From the sequence record PQ400055.1: DNA of 64,000 nucleotides; one strand, 5' to 3'. Source of the stretch: a phage. The position numbers and the translations under genes are program-made. This document shows positions 32,366 through 57,537 of this stretch, one piece after another. Every line of letters begins with the position of its first letter. Position 1 is the first letter of the stretch. The notes beneath the pieces are model-generated. The model saw nothing but the letters and a program-made list of their open reading frames with translations. It searched no databases and was not told the DNA's origin.

Positions 32366-34417
32366 TTACATTTTAAATTTATCTGGCATTGCGTCTACAG
32401 ATACCAGATCAGCGATAAGCTGACGTAGAGTTGCCTTATCTGCTTTCTTACGTTCGGTTTTAGCTTCGCTAATGAAGCTGGAGAAAGACAGGTCAGAAGC
32501 AGGTTTAATAACACCTTCACGGATGAATGCATCACCGTCCGCGATCATCTCGCCAGATTCTTGTAATGCTGCCAGTTCATTTTTGTTCATAATATGTGCC
32601 TCAATGTAATAAGTTTCTTGTGAATCCGTCGATGCCGTAGCACGAGTTACCGTATCAAAGGATAACACAACACCGCGAGGAAGTAAAATCTCGCATTCTT
32701 TGTAAGCAAATGCTTTGTTACCTACTGGCAATACAGGGATGTTTTCCGCGCCAGCAATGGAGAAAGCAACATTAGCGCCACCTTCACCGCGAGAGCCAGC
32801 CATAGAATCAACACCAGCAACGGCACTAGCCACGTTTGCATTCCAGCCGCCAAAAATGTTAGGTGCAAGGGAAGTGCTCACATAGTTTTTAAAGTAAAAC
32901 GCTTTTTGCTTACGTGCAGTTTCCCACATTTGCGACCGGAAGTCCATACCACGATACAGAATAGTACCCGGATCAAGTTTAACGCCATAGTTGGAGAAGG
33001 CATTATCCAGTGCATCGCACATCTTGACCAATTCTTCTGGATCTGCGATGCCTTCAAACTCTTCCAGCTTACGGTCGGTTAGGAAGTTGTTCATATTGAT
33101 GTATGCTGCATCGGCATATTCGCTCAACACAAAACCTTCCGCGCCCGGCAGATCAAGATCAATATCTGCCATCATTTCACCCATGTTGCTAGCAATTGCT
33201 TCAAACATACCGGAAGCAACATTACGTAGGGCATCTGTTTTAATCTGGGTGATATGACTACGCAGCATTTCAGCTTTTACATCTGCTGGCATAGACTGGT
33301 CTACTCGATCCATTGCCAGGGCGGTGATCTTGTTTTCGAATACTTCCTCGCTCATGATTTCTTTTAAGCGTTTGACCGAGGCTGCGATAACTTCCGCAGA
33401 CAATGGATCATATTGATCCTGAACTTTTACCAGTTCGCTTACTGCGTATTTTGCATCGGCTTCGCTTTCAAAAATAGTACGCATGAAACCATAGCGAGTG
33501 ATAATATCACTTGTCCAGTCATTCAGAGAACGGGCGGTTGAACGTTCTAAGGCTTGACGGTCAATCAGAGTATTAAACTGTTTCTTAGGTTCTGCTTCGG
33601 TGATATCTTCTTCCGGTTTAAGATTAATTTTTTCTGGATGATTCACGTAGTCGCTGTTATATGTCGCTTGAGTTTTCAGCATTTCTTCTTTAGTCAAACG
33701 AGATTTAGCCGCTACGCGTTGTTCTGCTTCCGCGTTTCGTTCTTCTTCTGACACAAGACTAGCCGCATATGCCTCATCTTTAGTCAGAGATTCACCAGTA
33801 GCCTTAGATACCCAGCGATCACCTAAATCACTTTCTACTTTAGTGAACAAGGATTCATCAAGTTTAATACCTTTAATCTTATCAATCGCCATCCCGCGAC
33901 GCTTGACAACAACTAAAGCGATCTTTTTGCTGGTCATTACTTCCTGCTGGAATACTTCAAACTTCGGTGTACGACGCACCAAACGCTCTATAACGCGCTT
34001 AACCAGTTCGGTCTTACCTTTCATGCGGGATACGTTAAAACGGAACATAACAGCGTCTAATTGCGCTTTACGGGCTGTTTCCATAACCACATCAAAAGCA
34101 CTTGACATAACTGCAATCGGGTTATCGCCTAGACCATTTTTAAGCTGTACAATACGACCGCTTTTGTTCATTTCGCACAGTACAACATGTGCGGTCTTGT
34201 CACCCATACGAATGATTTTAGGTGTTTTGTTGGTGAAGTTACAAAGACGGACAATCACATCTTTATCGCGTGTCTGTACTGCAAAAAGCTGTTTAGGATT
34301 CTGCTTAGGCTTTAAGCACTGTACCGGAGCAATACTGCCAAAGTTTTCTTCCTCTTCCGTCAACAGCCATTTCTCGAAAGATTCAATCATTAGATCGTCG
34401 ATTTCTAAGTTAAACAT
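32366..34417 (-). CDS. alt: Alt ADP-ribosyltransferase (packaged, modifies host RNA polymerase in T4)
   Basis: 683 aa (T4 Alt 682 aa); C-terminal ART motifs ILYRGM, YVSTS, YKECEILLPRG. Confidence 0.85.
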   Translation of the reverse strand: MFNLEIDDLMIESFEKWLLTEEEENFGSIAPVQCLKPKQNPKQLFAVQTRDKDVIVRLCNFTNKTPKIIRMGDKTAHVVLCEMNKSGRIVQLKNGLGDNPIAVMSSAFDVVMETARKAQLDAVMFRFNVSRMKGKTELVKRVIERLVRRTPKFEVFQQEVMTSKKIALVVVKRRGMAIDKIKGIKLDESLFTKVESDLGDRWVSKATGESLTKDEAYAASLVSEEERNAEAEQRVAAKSRLTKEEMLKTQATYNSDYVNHPEKINLKPEEDITEAEPKKQFNTLIDRQALERSTARSLNDWTSDIITRYGFMRTIFESEADAKYAVSELVKVQDQYDPLSAEVIAASVKRLKEIMSEEVFENKITALAMDRVDQSMPADVKAEMLRSHITQIKTDALRNVASGMFEAIASNMGEMMADIDLDLPGAEGFVLSEYADAAYINMNNFLTDRKLEEFEGIADPEELVKMCDALDNAFSNYGVKLDPGTILYRGMDFRSQMWETARKQKAFYFKNYVSTSLAPNIFGGWNANVASAVAGVDSMAGSRGEGGANVAFSIAGAENIPVLPVGNKAFAYKECEILLPRGVVLSFDTVTRATASTDSQETYYIEAHIMNKNELAALQESGEMIADGDAFIREGVIKPASDLSFSSFISEAKTERKKADKATLRQLIADLVSVDAMPDKFKM

Positions 34418-34458
34418 TTTATATCCTCTAGTTGATAACCTATAAACCTATATTTATG

Positions 34459-34480
34459 AAAAAGGGGCTTAACGCCCCCA
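34459..34480 (-). terminator. rho-independent terminator (minus)
   Basis: GGGGCGTTAAGCCCC followed by TTTTT on minus strand. Confidence 0.6.
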
Positions 34481-34484
34481 TTTA

Positions 34485-34697
34485 TTATAATGCACCATCG
34501 AGCAATTGCTCTAAGGTGTATCCTGAATAGTCTTTTTCAATCAGGATATATTTTCCTACTCGTTTAATACAACCACGCATTTCAACGTATTCTGCGTAGT
34601 TGATGGTGCGAGTTGTTCCATCTTCCAGTAATGCAGTACCGATTTCGTTAATGCGGTCATAAGTTACGTCGGTAATGATGATTTCGATGTTAGCCAT
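34485..34697 (-). CDS. small hypothetical early protein
   Basis: 70 aa ORF directly downstream of a PeSL-like cassette. Confidence 0.5.
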   Translation of the reverse strand: MANIEIIITDVTYDRINEIGTALLEDGTTRTINYAEYVEMRGCIKRVGKYILIEKDYSGYTLEQLLDGAL

Positions 34698-34768
34698 TTG
34701 ATACTCCTTAGTAGTTCGTTTCGGTATGGGTGTATTATGATATACACCATCTGTTATGTCAACAACTT
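34698..34768 (-). promoter_or_regulatory. PeSL-like early promoter cassette (TTGACA, 17 bp, CATAAT, then RBS)
   Basis: Minus-strand reading gives TTGACA -35 and CATAAT -10, then AGGAG RBS before ATG. Confidence 0.6.
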
Positions 34769-34948
34769 TTAGAACATTTTTGAAATTAATTCTGCTTTGA
34801 TTTCGCAGAGAACATCTAAAGATTTCTCGTCACCCGCTTTTGCTGCTTCTGCTTGCATTTTTGAAATGGCTTCAATGTCAGTGCAATTATAAGCCGCTTG
34901 AACTTTAGCGATTGCGATGATTGCCGATTCGATGGTTAAGTGTTTCAT
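34769..34948 (-). CDS. small hypothetical early protein (59 aa)
   Basis: Start placed at MKHLTIESAI.. after RBS AGGAGA; six-frame ORF to 35014 runs into promoter cassette. Confidence 0.5.
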   Translation of the reverse strand: MKHLTIESAIIAIAKVQAAYNCTDIEAISKMQAEAAKAGDEKSLDVLCEIKAELISKMF

Positions 34949-35020
34949 GTTTGATTCTCCTAGTTCGTTTCGGTATGTGTGTATTATAGGGGATCGATGA
35001 TCCCCTGTCAACAACTTTTT
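34949..35020 (-). promoter_or_regulatory. PeSL-like early promoter cassette
   Basis: TTGACAGGGGATCATCGATCCCCTATAAT on minus strand (palindromic spacer), then AGGAGA RBS. Confidence 0.7.
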
Positions 35021-35023
35021 TAG

Positions 35024-35539
35024 TTATTTTTTTAATTGCTCATCTTGCAATAGTGCAATCACATGCTGGCGATGTTCTTCCGATTGAGGCACACCGAAAA
35101 AGTTTGTTTTGTAGAAATACTCTAATCGGTCTTCTCGTGTGCTCTCTTCCATCATGATCGCGGGTAGTCCGAGATTTCGGAAACGTCGCTTTTCTGCTGG
35201 CGTAAAATCACTGTAATACAACATAGAATCATCATTACAAGCAATGCTAAACTCATCCTTCATAAAGGAGAATATTGCGTTTAAACGCTGTTTACCGTCC
35301 ACGATTTCGATCTCATAGCGAGAGCCATCATCAATCTTAGCCATTGCGATAGCACCAACCGGAAAATCATTAATCAGGTTTTCGATAAACATACGTTTGT
35401 TTTCGGTGTCCCATACCAAAGGACGCTGATAATCTGGGTTCATGTTGATATAGCCATCTTCTAACCACGCCTCATAAACAGAGATGACAAAGTTTTTAGT
35501 ATTGGTATAGTAACGGCGTTTAGGCGTTAAACGGTTCAT
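35024..35539 (-). CDS. DUF262/ParB-like nuclease-domain protein
   Basis: Motifs NPDYQRPLVW and IVDGKQRL resemble DUF262 (YQR..W; DGQQR) motifs. 171 aa. Confidence 0.5.
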   Translation of the reverse strand: MNRLTPKRRYYTNTKNFVISVYEAWLEDGYINMNPDYQRPLVWDTENKRMFIENLINDFPVGAIAMAKIDDGSRYEIEIVDGKQRLNAIFSFMKDEFSIACNDDSMLYYSDFTPAEKRRFRNLGLPAIMMEESTREDRLEYFYKTNFFGVPQSEEHRQHVIALLQDEQLKK

Positions 35540-35715
35540 AGTGTGCTTACCTTTTCAATATATGCGTCCGCATACTGGCGAATGCTCATTTCTTCTCGTA
35601 CTGCTGCTACAAATTCTTTCATGGATTCAAACCATTTGTAGGTGTCGCGATACATGACCAACTCTTCCCAAGTAAGATCGCAAATCTCTTTACCATGTAG
35701 TTGTGGTGTTATCAT
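35536..35715 (-). CDS. small hypothetical protein (59 aa)
   Basis: MITPQLHGKEICDLTWEEL..; RBS AGGAGA; stop overlaps next start (ATGA). Below six-frame track cutoff. Confidence 0.4.
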   Translation of the reverse strand: MITPQLHGKEICDLTWEELVMYRDTYKWFESMKEFVAAVREEMSIRQYADAYIEKVSTL

Positions 35716-36050
35716 AATATAGTTCTCCTGAATGGATCATCACGTAAATCAATATCTTTTAAGAACTCATCCCATGAATAGCGGATATTGTTCTTAATTC
35801 TCCAGATAAGCGCAGGGATTGAACGTTCTCCCATCTGGAAGTATGGATCATATGATCCGTATGCCCAATATGCTACTACAATTCCACAATCAGCGCAATA
35901 GTATTCTATTTCACTTGCTGGCGACCAAAGTCCATCAATATGATCGGTGATCTTGCTTTCGATGTTATGGCTATGACAATCAGGGCAACGGATGCAATGA
36001 CCTTGTTTATCGTAATTTGACGTTAGCGAATACTTAAACAATCTCATCAT
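35712..36050 (-). CDS. zinc-finger protein (C4)
   Basis: CIRCPDC..CADCG motifs; 112 aa; 4-nt overlap with both neighbours. Confidence 0.5.
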   Translation of the reverse strand: MMRLFKYSLTSNYDKQGHCIRCPDCHSHNIESKITDHIDGLWSPASEIEYYCADCGIVVAYWAYGSYDPYFQMGERSIPALIWRIKNNIRYSWDEFLKDIDLRDDPFRRTIL

Positions 36051-36763
36051 AGATCCTTATTTGCTTCAAATACTGCCTTTGCGAATCCTCGCGGGGTCAG
36101 TGACCTGATAGTCTTTGTTTTCGTTCCTTTCCCGCCTAGCTTAGAATGCTGTTTACTGTACCCTTTATTAATCTGCAACGGTTTCTTTTCTGGCATTATA
36201 AAGCCTTGTCCGGTCCATAAGCAAGTCTTTTTCGGGTACATATCACGGGCGGCGATATACTCAGGAAAAGTAGGATGTTTATCATCTTCCGGCAAATAAC
36301 CGCCATATTCCCACGGGTGGAACATGTAATCAGGCTTACGCCACATGCTAGAGATAACGCTTACAGGATTCTCTATCATGTAGGGAACTCCTAGCCATTC
36401 ACCCAAATAAGCGGTTATTTTAGCTGCCCTTACATCATGAACTTGAATCAATGGTCCTTGTTCTCGTTTCTTTCGTTCAAAGTGTGCAGCGCCACTAACA
36501 GCTAAATTGGTGCACGGTGGGAATGCAAAGATAATATCCGGTTTCCCCCATTCAAGGTCCATTGCTCTTTCTAGCCAGTTCAAATCAATCCATGTGTTTA
36601 CATAGGTAATGTTTGGGTGTTCAAATCTGGTATTATACTTTTTGTATGTGCCGTGGTCGCCATCGTCAGCATTAAAGCAGATCACCTTATGACCTGCTTT
36701 AGCCCATTCTAGCCCCATTATCCCCGATCCGTCAAAGTTACAGAATATTAATTTTTGTTTCAT
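36047..36763 (-). CDS. compact C5-cytosine methyltransferase-like protein
   Basis: Motif I-like FDGSGIMG, motif IV DIIFAFPPC, motif VI MIENPVSV, C-terminal IRSLTPRGFA (RxLTPRE-like). Only 238 aa, no obvious target-recognition domain. Confidence 0.45.
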   Translation of the reverse strand: MKQKLIFCNFDGSGIMGLEWAKAGHKVICFNADDGDHGTYKKYNTRFEHPNITYVNTWIDLNWLERAMDLEWGKPDIIFAFPPCTNLAVSGAAHFERKKREQGPLIQVHDVRAAKITAYLGEWLGVPYMIENPVSVISSMWRKPDYMFHPWEYGGYLPEDDKHPTFPEYIAARDMYPKKTCLWTGQGFIMPEKKPLQINKGYSKQHSKLGGKGTKTKTIRSLTPRGFAKAVFEANKDL

Positions 36764-37005
36764 ATACGCCCCTTTAATCCAACACAGATTTTAGAAGGTT
36801 CTTTGCCGTGCCACATTAAGTAAAGTCCGTTAATGCGGCCTTGTTTTGTATATGATTCTTTTCTGATCTTCTTATAGTGTCGTGTTTCCTCAACTGATTG
36901 TTTAGAATACCAATCATAAAGGAAGAGGCACAAAGGCCAACCATTAGCGGCCTTAATGCAGTTATTAAGAAATTCCTTATTGCGTTTAATTAATTTTCTT
37001 TTCAC
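36760..37005 (-). CDS. hypothetical protein
   Basis: 81 aa; 4-nt overlaps imply translational coupling in an operon. Confidence 0.45.
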   Translation of the reverse strand: MKRKLIKRNKEFLNNCIKAANGWPLCLFLYDWYSKQSVEETRHYKKIRKESYTKQGRINGLYLMWHGKEPSKICVGLKGRI

Positions 37006-37253
37006 GCTGCCCCCATTGGTTTGATAGTAACAGAATCTAAAAGACCTTTGTTAGCCAGTTCGCGGCAAGTTTTCAGATCCGCAACTTCCCAGCCAGCCGC
37101 AATCAGGTTATCAATGAGGCTGTTAGCAACTTCTTCGCTCATGAAAGAGCACTGTTTGCCGATGGTGTAGCGTACACGCTGTAATTTCAGTTTACGGAAG
37201 CCTTTAACGTTCAGGTCTTTAGCGATTTTCTTTGCGGTTTCGATGTTAGCCAT
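37002..37253 (-). CDS. hypothetical protein
   Basis: 83 aa; first gene after a PeSL-like promoter. Confidence 0.5.
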   Translation of the reverse strand: MANIETAKKIAKDLNVKGFRKLKLQRVRYTIGKQCSFMSEEVANSLIDNLIAAGWEVADLKTCRELANKGLLDSVTIKPMGAA

Positions 37254-37330
37254 TGTTTGATTCTCCTAAGTGGTATCTCGTCTTGATGGTTGTATTGTAG
37301 GGGAGTTATCCTCCCCTGTCAATACTTTTT
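37254..37330 (-). promoter_or_regulatory. PeSL-like early promoter cassette
   Basis: TTGACAGGGGAGGATAACTCCCCTACAAT on minus strand, then AGGAGA. Confidence 0.65.
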
Positions 37331-37336
37331 ATAAAA

Positions 37337-37504
37337 TTATTTGTTAATTTCTGGTGCGTTGCTAGGATAGTAACCTTCTTTAACACCCAGATATTTTGCA
37401 ACCATTCCTACAATCTTCTGTGCTACTACAATGTCAAATTTCAGATAATCTTCGCCGTGGGTTTCAATGATATATGCTTCACATGCTGCTTTAGTCTCGA
37501 ACAT
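37337..37504 (-). CDS. small protein (55 aa), copy 1 of a duplicated gene
   Basis: MFETKAACEAYIIETHGEDYLKFDIVVAQKIVGMVAKYLGVKEGYYPSNAPEINK; near-identical paralog at 40622..40789. Confidence 0.55.
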   Translation of the reverse strand: MFETKAACEAYIIETHGEDYLKFDIVVAQKIVGMVAKYLGVKEGYYPSNAPEINK

Positions 37505-37580
37505 TTTGATTCTCCTATTTCGTTTCGGTATGTGTGTATTATAGGGGATCTCCCGATCCCCGTCAACAACTTTTTTAAAA
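37505..37580 (-). promoter_or_regulatory. PeSL-like early promoter cassette
   Basis: TTGACGGGGATCGGGAGATCCCCTATAAT on minus strand, then AGGAGA. Confidence 0.65.
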
Positions 37581-37862
37581 TTATTCGTGATTAGTTTCGA
37601 TGTTGTACATTTTGCACCAGTTCAGCCAATCGCCCAGATCTTGATAGTTGATGCTTTTATCTGCTGCCATCGTTTTTGTCTTGATACCCATATGTGCGTT
37701 ATGAGTAAGCATTTTTACAGTGAACTCAATTTTATCGCCTTTAGCTTTAACATCAACCAGTTTGGTCCACTGGCTACCAGCGCCGCGAATGTTCATACCA
37801 ACGATGTTTCCGATGTATGCTTCTTTGTTTTTCAGGATTTCGGTTGCTTTGATGAATTTCAT
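37581..37862 (-). CDS. hypothetical early protein
   Basis: 93 aa ORF downstream of a PeSL-like cassette. Confidence 0.5.
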   Translation of the reverse strand: MKFIKATEILKNKEAYIGNIVGMNIRGAGSQWTKLVDVKAKGDKIEFTVKMLTHNAHMGIKTKTMAADKSINYQDLGDWLNWCKMYNIETNHE

Positions 37863-56304: not shown

Positions 56305-57537
56305 TTATACTGCCATTTGAGCGGTGATCGCTGGATGGCTTTGATAGTTGTGAATTTTAAAGTCTTTCGGAGTCTTTGTCAATACCTCATCTAAAGATTT
56401 AAATTCCGGCAACTCAATTGTTGGTTTATCAAACGGAACACGGCTTAACTGTTCCATGACTTGATCAAAATGGTTTTTGTAAATGTGAGTATCTCCACCA
56501 GAGAAAATCAGTTCTCCTACCTCAAGATCACACATTTTCGCTATGATGTGAGTTAACAGCGCATAGCTGGCGACGTTAAAGGGCAAGCCCAAAAAGCTGT
56601 CTACGCTTCGCTGAAACCACATGCAAGACAATTTACCTTCATTGACATAGAACTGCACGAAAGGATGACATACACCCAATACAGCATTATGTGTTCCTTG
56701 TACGTTCCATGCATCAATAATGATCCGGCGATCCGTTGGATTGTTTTTAATTTGTTCAATCACGTTTTGTAACTGGTCTTCCCAAATCTTCTGGCGATAG
56801 ACATATTCTTCATCGTCTTTAGTGCTCGATGTGTCTACGTCCATACTAGCAAAGATCGTGGTATCTGGTGCTAAAATATCCCCACCCAGATAATCACTAT
56901 CAAGCAGATAACCGAAATAACCATCATCTACCCATTCCTGGAATCCCCACAAGCAATATGCATCATTAACAAAATTAGATTGAGTCTTCCAGTGGTCTGC
57001 TACTAAGAATAGATTATACTCAGAATCAAACTCTTCATAACGCATACCACGCCAGATAGCACATAAACGGTCTTCTGTTTCATTGGTTGGCGTAAAGTCT
57101 TCTACCCACGGGTGCTTAAATGTATGTGCATATTTGCTCTTAACGCGCTTAATTTTGATTTCACCGTGTGGATGAATCGGTTTGCGTCGCCATGCCATAC
57201 CATACATATTGCCGACATTATAACCATTGAATCGCAAAGGATTCTTTTCTTTCATATCAAGACAGTTGCCGCGCCAAATGTCGAAGGCTTCTTCGTCAAA
57301 CTTACCGCGTGTAATTTCCTGTAAGCGACGGCGGTCAAGTGATCCCTCCATAAACCATAGCAATTCGCCAATTACAGAGGCTGTAGCCATCTTTTTAGTG
57401 GTCAGTAATGGGAAACCCTTGCTTAAATCAATTCGCATCTCTGCGCCGAATTTAGATAGCGTACCTACCCCAGTTCGGTCTTCACGAGGCCATCCATTAT
57501 CAAGAACATCACGCAATAGTTTCAAATATTCTTTCAT
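56305..57537 (-). CDS. td: thymidylate synthase with about 120-aa internal insertion
   Basis: Core closely resembles E. coli ThyA (VCHPFVQFYV..KLSCMWFQRS.D.FLGLPFNVASYALL..CDLEVGE..GGDTHIYKNH); 410 aa vs 286 in T4 (from memory); insertion between WRRKP and EDQLQNVIEQI; no intron. Confidence 0.8.
   Translation of the reverse strand: MKEYLKLLRDVLDNGWPREDRTGVGTLSKFGAEMRIDLSKGFPLLTTKKMATASVIGELLWFMEGSLDRRRLQEITRGKFDEEAFDIWRGNCLDMKEKNPLRFNGYNVGNMYGMAWRRKPIHPHGEIKIKRVKSKYAHTFKHPWVEDFTPTNETEDRLCAIWRGMRYEEFDSEYNLFLVADHWKTQSNFVNDAYCLWGFQEWVDDGYFGYLLDSDYLGGDILAPDTTIFASMDVDTSSTKDDEEYVYRQKIWEDQLQNVIEQIKNNPTDRRIIIDAWNVQGTHNAVLGVCHPFVQFYVNEGKLSCMWFQRSVDSFLGLPFNVASYALLTHIIAKMCDLEVGELIFSGGDTHIYKNHFDQVMEQLSRVPFDKPTIELPEFKSLDEVLTKTPKDFKIHNYQSHPAITAQMAV

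What the first reader, a model, noticed from the sequence alone, without database searches (positions are those of the whole stretch)
35024..37253. Translationally coupled early operon: compact C5-methyltransferase-like protein, C4 zinc-finger protein and DUF262/ParB-like protein
Six consecutive minus-strand genes between two promoter cassettes overlap by 4 nt (ATGA). The 238-aa product has C5-cytosine methyltransferase motifs I, IV (FPPC), VI (ENP) and an RxLTPRE-like C-terminus but is too short for a normal target-recognition domain. The 171-aa product has DUF262 motifs (YQR..W, DGKQR) without the usual DUF1524/HNH partner. No alc-like gene sits between rnlA and the spanins, where T4 has one. 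Together this may mean the phage uses a cytosine chemistry other than T4-type glucosyl-hmC, or that the operon is an anti-restriction or inter-phage competition module.
Basis: partly seen in the sequence, partly recalled or inferred. Interest (0 to 1): 0.65.

Follow-up and report, generated by a model that had tools for sequence, protein, structure and literature searches.

The report
Early accessory operon with compact Dcm methylase
This is a real, tightly packed early operon of an RB49-like coliphage that carries an already recognised small phage cytosine methylase and a nuclease-less DUF262 protein; the genes look like independently acquired accessory genes, not a new cytosine chemistry.

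Summary
Six minus-strand genes (37253..35024) lie between two promoter-stem-loop cassettes and overlap by 4 nt; four junctions are ATGA and one is GTGA.

The window is a Krischvirus (99.4% identical to phage kaaroe). The cassettes are the published PeSL elements of RB49-type phages.

The 238-aa protein belongs to a very large family of compact phage "Dcm" proteins (PHROG 757; more than 7,000 homologues of about 230 aa; 1,522 phage records). Its predicted fold is that of a C5-cytosine methyltransferase, closest to DNMT3B. A 55%-identical T1-like relative has the same gene length and residue numbering as the Dcm reported to make 5mC in vivo and to trigger retron Ec86.

The 171-aa protein is a complete minimal DUF262/ParB-Srx domain with no nuclease. 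It belongs to a clade whose 150 best relatives all lack DUF1524.

Neither the Zn-ribbon protein nor the DUF262 protein sits next to the methylase in the other phages examined. The 59-aa gene is an indel. The operon is therefore best read as a mosaic, not a module.

Alc is absent, but unmodified cytosine in RB49 and TB34 is already published, and the window strongly avoids palindromic restriction sites.

Open points: the methylase's target site, the DUF262 function, and one published report of a hmC-modified Krischvirus (SAP).

The parts
37294..37322 (-). Upstream PeSL cassette: sigma-70-type early promoter (TTGACA, 17 nt, TACAAT) with a GGGGAG..CTCCCC stem-loop between the hexamers. It drives the operon.
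   Evidence: Pattern match, 4 in the window against 0 in shuffles; 11/12 consensus match; sequence read; PeSL defined in PMC2839356.
37002..37253 (-). Gene 1, 83 aa, unknown function (PHROG 14908; homologue of RB49p190).
   Evidence: RBS GGAGAA upstream of the ATG.
36760..37005 (-). Gene 2, 81 aa, GTG start overlapping the stop of gene 1 (GTGA), unknown function (PHROG 7065; RB49p189.1; not annotated in kaaroe).
   Evidence: pN/pS 0.15-0.25 against RB49, TB34 and GEC-3S.
36047..36763 (-). Gene 3, 238 aa, compact orphan C5-cytosine DNA methyltransferase of the phage 'Dcm' family (PHROG 757; RB49p189). Motif I F10xG12S13G14, catalytic P83-C84, E131-N132-P133, K178-K179, R220SLTPRG226. Only about 34 residues lie where a TRD would be.
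   Evidence: 55% identity to JK16 gp19 with matching C82/E128/K175/K176. pN/pS 0.03-0.05.
35712..36050 (-). Gene 4, 112 aa, CxxC...CxxC zinc-ribbon protein (PHROG 2993; RB49p188, noted as 'TFIIB zinc-binding' in 2006), function unknown.
   Evidence: Homologues occur in JenK1-like and Felixounavirus phages; none was found within +/-2.5 kb of the methylase in tonn or JK16.
35536..35715 (-). Gene 5, 59 aa ORFan. It is a 177-180-bp insertion exactly at the Zn-ribbon/DUF262 junction, is absent from RB49, GEC-3S and TB34, and keeps ATGA coupling on both sides.
   Evidence: Found in only 2 of 50,697 phage records. No family hit.
35024..35539 (-). Gene 6, 171 aa, minimal stand-alone DUF262 (GmrSD_N, ParB/Srx-fold NTPase-type domain) with invariant YQR..VW, DGKQR and NFxGVPQSxEH. 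It has no nuclease domain (RB49p187).
34983..35011 (-). Downstream PeSL cassette, starting 12 nt after the DUF262 stop codon. Its stem-loop is the likely terminator of the operon, and it is the promoter (12/12 consensus) of the next small gene.
   Evidence: Terminator function of PeSL stem-loops is reported in PMC2839356.

Best explanation
The block is one PeSL-bounded early transcription unit in a hyperplastic region of an RB49-like Krischvirus. It is a mosaic of independently acquired accessory genes that are co-transcribed from a strong sigma-70 promoter and translationally coupled. It is not a dedicated cytosine-modification pathway.

The 238-aa product is a working member of the compact phage Dcm family. 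It is a SAM-dependent C5-cytosine DNA methyltransferase with a full catalytic core (FxGxG, PC, ENP, KK, RxLTPRG) and a vestigial target-recognition region. It most likely acts alone and writes 5mC at a rare, short site. CCWGG is the site assumed for its T1-like relative. At that density it would mark only about 0.2% of cytosines. Its purpose is most plausibly partial protection from host restriction, and a known side-effect is that such enzymes can trigger retron Ec86.

The 171-aa product is a complete minimal DUF262/ParB-Srx nucleotide-binding domain, a 'GmrS-like' head without the DUF1524 nuclease. It most likely acts independently of the methylase as a nucleotide-dependent DNA-binding or sensing accessory protein.

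Shown: the anatomy, family memberships, folds, purifying selection, and the absence of conserved adjacency in the loci examined. Inferred: enzymatic activity of this particular protein, its target site, its biological role, and any activity of the DUF262 protein.
For: The window is a Krischvirus, and the block is covered at 80% or more in 56 of 64 matching records. Flanking PeSLs: and PMC2839356. Coupling.

Low-density methylation fits the published data. RB49 is cut by HpaII and NheI. No modified nucleoside was detected in TB34. The window holds 24 CCWGG sites, which would be 48 5mC among about 25,800 C.

Mosaic nature. No adjacency was seen in tonn, JK16, RB43, KP15 or UPF_BP1 (tblastn), and no methylase Pfam domain lies near the short DUF262 on two metagenomic contigs. 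The 59-aa gene is an indel.

Against: The 238-aa protein fails Pfam's own DNA_methylase threshold. Neither it nor a 50-sequence family profile finds any solved methyltransferase by sequence.

No activity has been measured for any Krischvirus copy, and no 5mC was reported in TB34 DNA.

CCWGG is strongly avoided in the window (O/E 0.33). That is unexpected if the phage reliably self-protects that site, so the target site may be different or protection may be incomplete.

The BASEL study found no simple link between such methylase genes and restriction resistance.

Tight translational coupling of six genes is also what a true functional module would look like.

One Krischvirus (SAP) is reported to carry fully hmC/gentiobiosyl-hmC DNA by an unknown pathway.
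Confidence: 0.7

Rival explanations
1. The operon is a functional DNA-modification module. The TRD-poor methylase obtains its sequence specificity or DNA loading from the neighbouring Zn-ribbon protein and/or the ParB-like DUF262 protein, as in split methylases such as M.AquI or ParB-domain/methylase fusions (comparisons from my own knowledge).
For: The genes are co-transcribed and stop/start coupled. Only about 34 residues sit between the last core strand and motif IX.
Against: Methylase homologues in tonn and JK16 have no Zn-ribbon or DUF262 neighbour within 2.5 kb. Short DUF262 homologues in RB43, KP15, UPF_BP1 and two metagenomic contigs have no methylase or Zn-ribbon neighbour. Zn-ribbon homologues occur in JenK1-like and Felixounavirus phages. 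K42 Dcm expressed alone methylated msDNA. An ORFan has been inserted between the Zn-ribbon and DUF262 genes in some strains.
Confidence: 0.07
2. The nuclease-less DUF262 protein is an anti-defence factor. It would be a decoy or dominant-negative partner that poisons host GmrSD/BrxU/SspE-type DUF262-DUF1524 enzymes, protecting DNA that the neighbouring methylase has marked with 5mC.
For: It has clear GmrSD_N homology and fold without a nuclease. It sits in an early operon with a 5mC writer. By my recollection of earlier work, BrxU also cleaves 5mC DNA; the paper read here reports broad cytosine-modification specificity. Short homologues occur mostly in phages.
Against: The NTP-binding motifs (QR, DGKQR, NFxGVPQSxEH) are invariant across the family. 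That points to retained enzymatic or switch function and away from a passive decoy. Homologues are not linked to methylases elsewhere. TB34 is already immune to BrxU simply because its DNA is unmodified.
Confidence: 0.12
3. The DUF262 protein is an inter-phage competition or superinfection-exclusion device. It would be a GmrS-like sensor of modified (hmC-type) competitor DNA working with a nuclease encoded elsewhere in the phage.
For: GmrS and GmrD can be separate proteins, and systems with extra GmrS-like genes exist (PMC12373910). Homologues of the short protein are present in other T4-like phages such as RB43 and KP15; that those phages have unmodified cytosine is my recollection, not checked here. 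The best PADLOC hits are sensor components of defence systems, NsnA and PD-T4-2_A.
Against: No DUF1524/HNH partner is in the operon or among the flanking genes. The 150 best relatives are all too short to carry one, and ten longer ones scanned showed only GmrSD_N. I did not search the rest of the genome for a partner nuclease.
Confidence: 0.08
4. The methylase-like protein is the first step of a post-replicative cytosine hypermodification pathway (5mC to 5hmC to glycosyl-hmC). This would explain the reported hmC/gentiobiosyl-hmC DNA of Krischvirus SAP.
For: SAP is reported to be fully cytosine-modified although the genus lacks dCMP hydroxymethylase and known glucosyltransferases. MTase-plus-TET pathways exist in other phages (my own knowledge).
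Against: TB34 is 99.96% identical, has the same intact methylase and has canonical cytosines. RB49 is cut by 5mC-sensitive enzymes. The window shows extreme palindrome avoidance, typical of DNA exposed to type II enzymes. In this region SAP differs from TB34 only by an 80-bp PeSL duplication. SAP's modification profile groups with that of seven Tequatrovirus phages of the same collection, which suggests to me a mixed stock (inference).
Confidence: 0.03

Closest known systems
Phage K42 (KarlJaspers-like, Drexlerviridae) Dcm, the trigger of retron Ec86 (bioRxiv 10.1101/2023.08.16.553469)
   Same: Same compact family. It is about 236 aa, and its catalytic Cys, Glu and Lys-Lys lie at equivalent positions (C82/E128/K175/K176 against C84/E131/K178/K179). 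The Warwickvirus orthologue JK16 gp19 is 55% identical over the full length. It is an orphan enzyme with no cognate restriction gene.
   Different: The host phage is a T4-like myovirus, not a T1-like siphovirus, and the gene sits in a six-gene coupled operon. No activity, target site or retron triggering has been measured for the Krischvirus copy. I did not have the K42 sequence itself; the link rests on identical gene length and residue numbering in a related phage.
Canonical bacterial C5-cytosine methyltransferases (M.HhaI, M.HaeIII, E. coli Dcm; Pfam PF00145)
   Different: About 90 residues shorter. Roughly 34 residues stand in place of the 80-100-residue TRD (canonical TRD length from my own knowledge). 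Motif IX runs straight into the C-terminal helix with no separate motif X segment. It scores below the Pfam threshold and finds no PDB methylase by sequence.
Catalytic domain of DNMT3A/DNMT3B
   Different: Only 13-17% sequence identity. The DNMT3 enzymes are eukaryotic, work as oligomers with regulatory domains, and recognise CpG. Nothing here shows an evolutionary link or a shared oligomeric mechanism.
N-terminal DUF262 domain of GmrSD-family type IV restriction enzymes (BrxU, SspE, DndI) and the separate GmrS subunit
   Same: Passes the Pfam GmrSD_N threshold. QR and DG(K/Q)QR motifs are present. ParB/Srx fold, with 131-135 of 171 residues aligned to BrxU, SspE and DndI.
   Different: No DUF1524/HNH nuclease in the protein or in adjacent genes. 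About half the size of GmrS (GmrS size from my own knowledge). It belongs to a clade of proteins of 344 aa or fewer that end with the DUF262 domain.
PeSL (promoter-early stem-loop) cassettes of RB49/phi1 (Arbiol et al. 2010, PMC2839356)
   Same: Same phage lineage and the same architecture: a strong sigma-70 promoter with a G/C stem-loop, bounding small non-essential genes in hyperplastic regions.
   Different: None of note; these are the same elements. The 59-aa gene, however, was gained inside the unit without a PeSL of its own.

Membership tests
C5-cytosine DNA methyltransferase (PF00145 type) | Motif I, SAM-binding FxGxG | tested here: met
   F10-D-G12-S13-G14 is invariant in 50 homologues. 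A weak Pfam alignment covers motifs I-IV.
C5-cytosine DNA methyltransferase (PF00145 type) | Motif IV, catalytic Pro-Cys | tested here: met
   F81-P82-P83-C84 is invariant. The equivalent C82 was part of the inactivating mutant of K42 Dcm.
C5-cytosine DNA methyltransferase (PF00145 type) | Motif VI, ENV-type Glu | tested here: met
   E131-N132-P133 is invariant. It is equivalent to E128 of K42 Dcm.
C5-cytosine DNA methyltransferase (PF00145 type) | A target-recognition domain of about 80 or more residues between motifs VIII and IX | tested here: not met
   Only residues 186-219 (about 34 aa) lie between the last core strand (180-185) and R220SLTPRG. The canonical TRD length is from my own knowledge.
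C5-cytosine DNA methyltransferase (PF00145 type) | Motifs IX and X (RxLTxxE ... GNxV) | tested here: inconclusive
   R220-S-L-T-P-R-G226-F-A-K-A-V is present and nearly invariant. It reads as motif IX fused to a motif-X-like helix, with no separate motif X.
C5-cytosine DNA methyltransferase (PF00145 type) | Score above Pfam's gathering threshold | tested here: not met
   14.4 bits against a cut-off of 22, E=0.027. No PDB sequence hit with the single sequence or the family profile. A few homologues carry a precomputed PF00145 hit.
C5-cytosine DNA methyltransferase (PF00145 type) | C5-MTase fold | tested here: met
C5-cytosine DNA methyltransferase (PF00145 type) | SAM-dependent formation of 5mC in DNA | not testable with these tools
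   Reported only for K42 Dcm, which by matching gene length and residue numbers (not its sequence) is placed in the same family as 55%-identical JK16 gp19. No 5mC has been reported in TB34 or RB49 DNA.
Compact phage Dcm family (PHROG 757) | Full-length profile match and family-typical length of about 225-250 aa | tested here: met
   E=2.1e-90, residues 1-237. The 120 best of 7,310 homologues are 219-259 aa.
DUF262 / GmrSD_N (PF03235) | Score above Pfam's gathering threshold, with the QR and DGQQR-type motifs | tested here: met
   72.9 bits against 33.2. Y37-Q38-R39, D81-G82-K83-Q84-R85 and N146..G149VPQS are invariant.
DUF262 / GmrSD_N (PF03235) | ParB/Srx-type fold | tested here: met
GmrSD-type modification-dependent restriction enzyme | DUF1524/HNH nuclease domain, fused or as an adjacent GmrD gene | tested here: not met
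   The protein ends 15 residues after the last DUF262 motif. No nuclease family was found in the six operon proteins or the two downstream genes. The rest of the genome was not searched.
PeSL regulatory cassette | Sigma-70 promoter combined with a G/C stem-loop, repeated between small early genes | tested here: met
   Four exact pattern matches against 0 expected; consensus scores 11-12 of 12.
T4-type glucosyl-hmC system | Alc between rnlA and the spanins; dCMP hydroxymethylase and glucosyltransferases | tested here: not met
   Alc is absent at the syntenic position. Absence of the hydroxymethylase and glucosyltransferases in the genus is taken from the literature; I did not search for them genome-wide.

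The most novel reading that the evidence does not exclude
The mini-DUF262 proteins would be a phage-specific family of nuclease-less GmrS-like NTPases that act as anti-defence factors against DUF262-containing host systems (GmrSD/BrxU, SspE, Menshen), or as modified-DNA sensors for exclusion of competing phages. The family includes solo forms of about 165 aa and forms with an unknown N-terminal extension of about 120 aa. In Krischvirus the protein would be functionally paired with the 5mC-writing compact Dcm, whose mark would otherwise attract type IV restriction.
Probability: 0.15. Interest if true: 0.65.

Novelty: new member of a known kind. Interest (0 to 1): 0.3.

Why it matters
The result mainly removes a false lead. 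The operon does not point to an unknown cytosine chemistry, and the methylase is an ordinary member of a very common phage family.

Three things remain worth knowing.
- This compact family is present in about 3% of sequenced phages (1,522 of 50,697 records). It has almost no target-recognition domain, and no target site has been directly determined for it. How such an enzyme reads DNA is an open structural question.
- Dcm-type enzymes are retron Ec86 triggers. RB49-like therapeutic phages may therefore be sensed by that system.
- The nuclease-less DUF262 clade is uncharacterised and could be an anti-defence or exclusion factor.

The published SAP/TB34 paradox makes any cytosine-directed enzyme of this genus a reasonable first knockout.

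Tried and rejected
1. Zn-ribbon as a conserved partner of the DUF262 protein. RB43 and KP15 also have a gene of about 110 aa just upstream of their short DUF262. However, it is only 19-23% identical to the Zn-ribbon protein and has no cysteines, so it is not homologous.

2. Co-localisation of the methylase with Zn-ribbon or DUF262 homologues in T1-like phages, RB43, KP15 and a P22-like phage. None was found within 2.5-3 kb by tblastn. On two metagenomic contigs only Pfam annotations of neighbouring genes were available; none was a methylase.

3. Sequence-level link to solved methyltransferases. None was found with the single protein or the 50-sequence profile. Only fold comparison worked.

4. 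NCBIfam gave no hit for any of the six proteins.

5. Inferring the methylase's target from site statistics. CCWGG, CCSGG and GGCC are all avoided, while GATC, TCGA, TGCA and GCTAGC are not. This does not identify a protected site.

6. Looking for a clue to the SAP modification in this operon. The only difference from TB34 in the 5 kb compared is an 80-bp PeSL duplication.

7. The N-terminal extension of the longer mini-DUF262 relatives has no Pfam domain.

It was repeated with eligible sequences.
Full report
**What the window is**

Region 34400-37600 is 99.4% identical to Escherichia phage kaaroe and 97-98% identical to RB49, GEC-3S, TB34 and about 50 other Krischvirus genomes. 56 of 64 matching records cover at least 80% of it. 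G+C is about 40%. The locus lies just upstream of the alt (RNA polymerase ADP-ribosyltransferase) gene, in a long run of small minus-strand genes.

**Checking the observation**

The six ORFs are as described. They are 83, 81, 238, 112, 59 and 171 aa. Each downstream start overlaps the upstream stop by 4 nt. The junctions read GTGA, ATGA, ATGA, ATGA and ATGA, and each start is preceded by a Shine-Dalgarno-like purine run. The only correction is that the second gene starts with GTG.

The flanking 'promoter cassettes' are TTGACA-GGGG(stem-loop)CCCC-TAYAAT elements at 37322-37294 and 35011-34983. Four copies match a strict pattern in the window, against none in 100 shuffles. They score 11/12 and 12/12 against the sigma-70 consensus. 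These are the PeSLs (promoter-early stem-loops) described for RB49 and phi1. There they act as strong early promoters and terminators and mediate modular shuffling of non-essential genes in hyperplastic regions (PMC2839356). The unit is therefore an early transcript bounded by known mobile regulatory cassettes.

In RB49, GEC-3S and TB34 the operon has five genes. The 59-aa ORF is a 177-180-bp insertion exactly at the Zn-ribbon/DUF262 junction. It occurs in only two of 50,697 phage records, kaaroe and FL04.

**The 238-aa protein**

Pfam gives only a sub-threshold DNA_methylase hit (E=0.027, 14.4 bits against a cut-off of 22) covering motifs I-IV. PHROG 757 ('DNA methyltransferase') matches the full length at E=2e-90.

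The family is very large. A search found 7,310 homologues, and the 120 best are all 219-259 aa. tblastn finds it in 1,522 phage records, including T1-like Drexlerviridae, Dhillonvirus, rV5-like phages, Klebsiella Webervirus and phiKO2. GenBank records already call it 'Dcm' or 'DNA methyltransferase'.

Across 50 homologues the following are invariant or nearly so:
- FxGSG (residues 10-14)
- PPC (82-84)
- ENP (131-133)
- KK(T)C (178-181)
- IRSLTPRG (219-226)

Only about 34 residues (186-219) lie between the last core strand and motif IX, and motif IX runs directly into the C-terminal helix. However, this is the norm for the family.

A member of the family has been tested. The 711-bp Dcm of the KarlJaspers-like phage K42 was disrupted in all four retron-Ec86 escape mutants. 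Expressed alone, it raised 5mC in msDNA by LC-MS and activated the retron. A C82A/E128A/K175A/K176A mutant was inactive (bioRxiv 10.1101/2023.08.16.553469). JK16 gp19, from a related Warwickvirus, is also 711 bp and has C82, E128, K175 and K176 at exactly those numbers. It is 55% identical to the window protein, where the equivalents are C84, E131, K178 and K179. I did not have the K42 sequence itself, so the link is by gene length and residue numbering.

The CCWGG specificity in that paper is assumed by analogy with E. coli Dcm and supported only by msDNA site mutants. It was not determined directly.

Within Krischvirus the gene is under strong purifying selection: 15-20 synonymous against 2-4 non-synonymous differences, pN/pS 0.03-0.05.

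**The 171-aa protein**

- Pfam GmrSD_N (DUF262): E=5e-20, above threshold.
- PHROG 1583: E=1.6e-52.
- PADLOC NsnA (the Menshen system per PMC12065111): E=3.5e-20; PD-T4-2_A: E=5e-12.
- A profile of the family finds the DUF262 domains of DndI, BrxU and SspE in the PDB.

YQR..VW, DGKQR and a C-terminal NFxGVPQSxEH are invariant. This is therefore a complete minimal DUF262 domain with its nucleotide-binding signature intact.

Short homologues (160-178 aa, 35-40% identity) occur in other T4-like phages (RB43, KP15 and other Slopekvirus phages, Pectobacterium POP12, Yersinia JC221) and in a P22-like phage. An exhaustive profile search found 17,093 relatives. The 150 best are all 92-344 aa. They are either solo or carry an unassigned N-terminal extension of about 110-130 aa, and all are too short to carry a DUF1524 domain. 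No paper I found discusses such phage-encoded solo DUF262 proteins.

**Is the operon a functional module?**

The evidence says it probably is not.
- In tonn and JK16 the methylase is flanked by unrelated genes.
- In RB43, KP15 and UPF_BP1 the short DUF262 has no methylase or Zn-ribbon within 3 kb. On two metagenomic contigs no neighbouring gene carries a methylase Pfam domain.
- The gene of about 110 aa upstream of the DUF262 in RB43 and KP15 is not a Zn-ribbon homologue.
- Zn-ribbon homologues occur in JenK1-like and Felixounavirus phages.
- Some strains have an ORFan inserted within the unit.
- K42 Dcm works when expressed alone.

Together with the PeSL literature, this fits a mosaic of independently acquired accessory genes.

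**Cytosine chemistry**

Alc is absent. The order is denA, rnlA, i-spanin, o-spanin, pseT, with 43 nt between rnlA and the first spanin. This is not new. RB49 is described as lacking the hydroxymethylase and beta-glucosyltransferase, and it is cut by HpaII and NheI (PMC4041780). TB34, with the same operon, had no detectable modified nucleoside (PMC13390438).

The window adds independent support. 25 of 64 palindromic hexamers are absent, including GAATTC (expected 20), TCCGGA (22), AAGCTT (14) and GGATCC (13). By contrast, only 2 of 3,654 comparably expected non-palindromic hexamers are absent. CCWGG has O/E 0.33 and GGCC 0.36. That is the signature of DNA exposed to type II restriction.

If the methylase does target CCWGG, the 24 sites in 64 kb would give about 0.2% 5mC. 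My inference is that this would be easily missed by HPLC. The avoidance of CCWGG argues that protection of that site is incomplete or that the real target differs.

One caveat is that the same 2026 paper reports that Krischvirus SAP, 99.96% identical to TB34, carries hmC and gentiobiosyl-hmC by an unknown route. In the 5 kb around this operon, SAP differs from TB34 only by an 80-bp tandem duplication of the PeSL downstream of the DUF262 gene. SAP's modification profile groups with that of seven Tequatrovirus phages from the same collection. I think a mixed stock is the more likely explanation, but this is inference.

**Verdict**

The biology is largely ordinary and already annotated. It consists of a known phage lineage with known unmodified DNA, known PeSL cassettes, and a known compact Dcm family in which activity has been reported for one member.

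What is still unknown:
- the methylase's target site, and how it reads DNA with so small a recognition region;
- the role of the nuclease-less DUF262 clade.

I rate interest at 0.3 and file the finding as a new member of a known kind.

Noticed in passing
window 1-64000 (whole window): Extreme avoidance of 6-bp palindromes. 25 of 64 are absent (GAATTC expected 20, TCCGGA 22, AAGCTT 14, GGATCC 13; all observed 0), against 2 of 3,654 non-palindromic hexamers with similar expectation. CCWGG O/E is 0.33 and GGCC 0.36, while GATC, TCGA, TGCA and GCTAGC are not avoided.
   Followed up: partly
L010 (phage SAP, OZ034687.1) about 1550-1710 versus L009 (TB34) 1540-1630; equivalent to window about 34950-35023: SAP, reported as hmC-modified, differs from TB34 (unmodified, 99.96% identical) by an 80-bp tandem duplication of the PeSL cassette immediately downstream of the DUF262 gene. 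It is the only difference in the 5 kb compared apart from two small gaps.
   Followed up: partly
window 35536-35715 (-): A 59-aa ORFan with no family hit, found only in kaaroe and FL04 among 50,697 phage records. It was inserted without a PeSL at the start codon of the DUF262 gene, re-using a near copy of that gene's RBS (AGGAGA-CTATA), and it preserves ATGA coupling on both sides.
   Followed up: yes
window 56305-57537 (-): The thymidylate-synthase-like ORF is 410 aa. The usual ThyA N- and C-terminal blocks are split by an insertion of roughly 130 residues. It keeps the ...GGDTHIYKNH... Asn typical of dUMP-specific enzymes (my own knowledge). kaaroe annotates the equivalent gene as a putative dTMP synthase.
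   Followed up: no
window 34769-35014 (-) and 37441-37569 (-): The mechanical ORF list gives TTG-start ORFs whose N-termini (MLTG..RSPIIHTYRNE.GES) are just the PeSL cassette read through. For 34769-35014 the real gene is the 59-aa ATG-start ORF (34769-34948) that matches PHROG 20811; 37441-37569 looks to be the same read-through artefact.
   Followed up: yes
window 37002-37253 (-): The 83-aa first gene of the operon has a weak PADLOC hit (E=2.6e-5) to positions 722-785 of the 938-position profile of the defence-associated reverse transcriptase UG35.
   Followed up: no
window 37337-37504 (-); L005 14973-15137: The 55-aa gene just upstream of the operon has an 89%-identical second copy about 3 kb away in kaaroe. 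RB49's ORFan192, the subject of the PeSL mini-circle work, is missing between the p191 and p193 homologues here. Both fit PeSL-mediated shuffling.
   Followed up: no
relatives P0127, P0146-P0275 (not in the window): Many close relatives of the mini-DUF262 are 250-300 aa, with a conserved-length N-terminal extension of about 110-130 aa that has no Pfam domain. It may hold the key to the family's function.
   Followed up: partly
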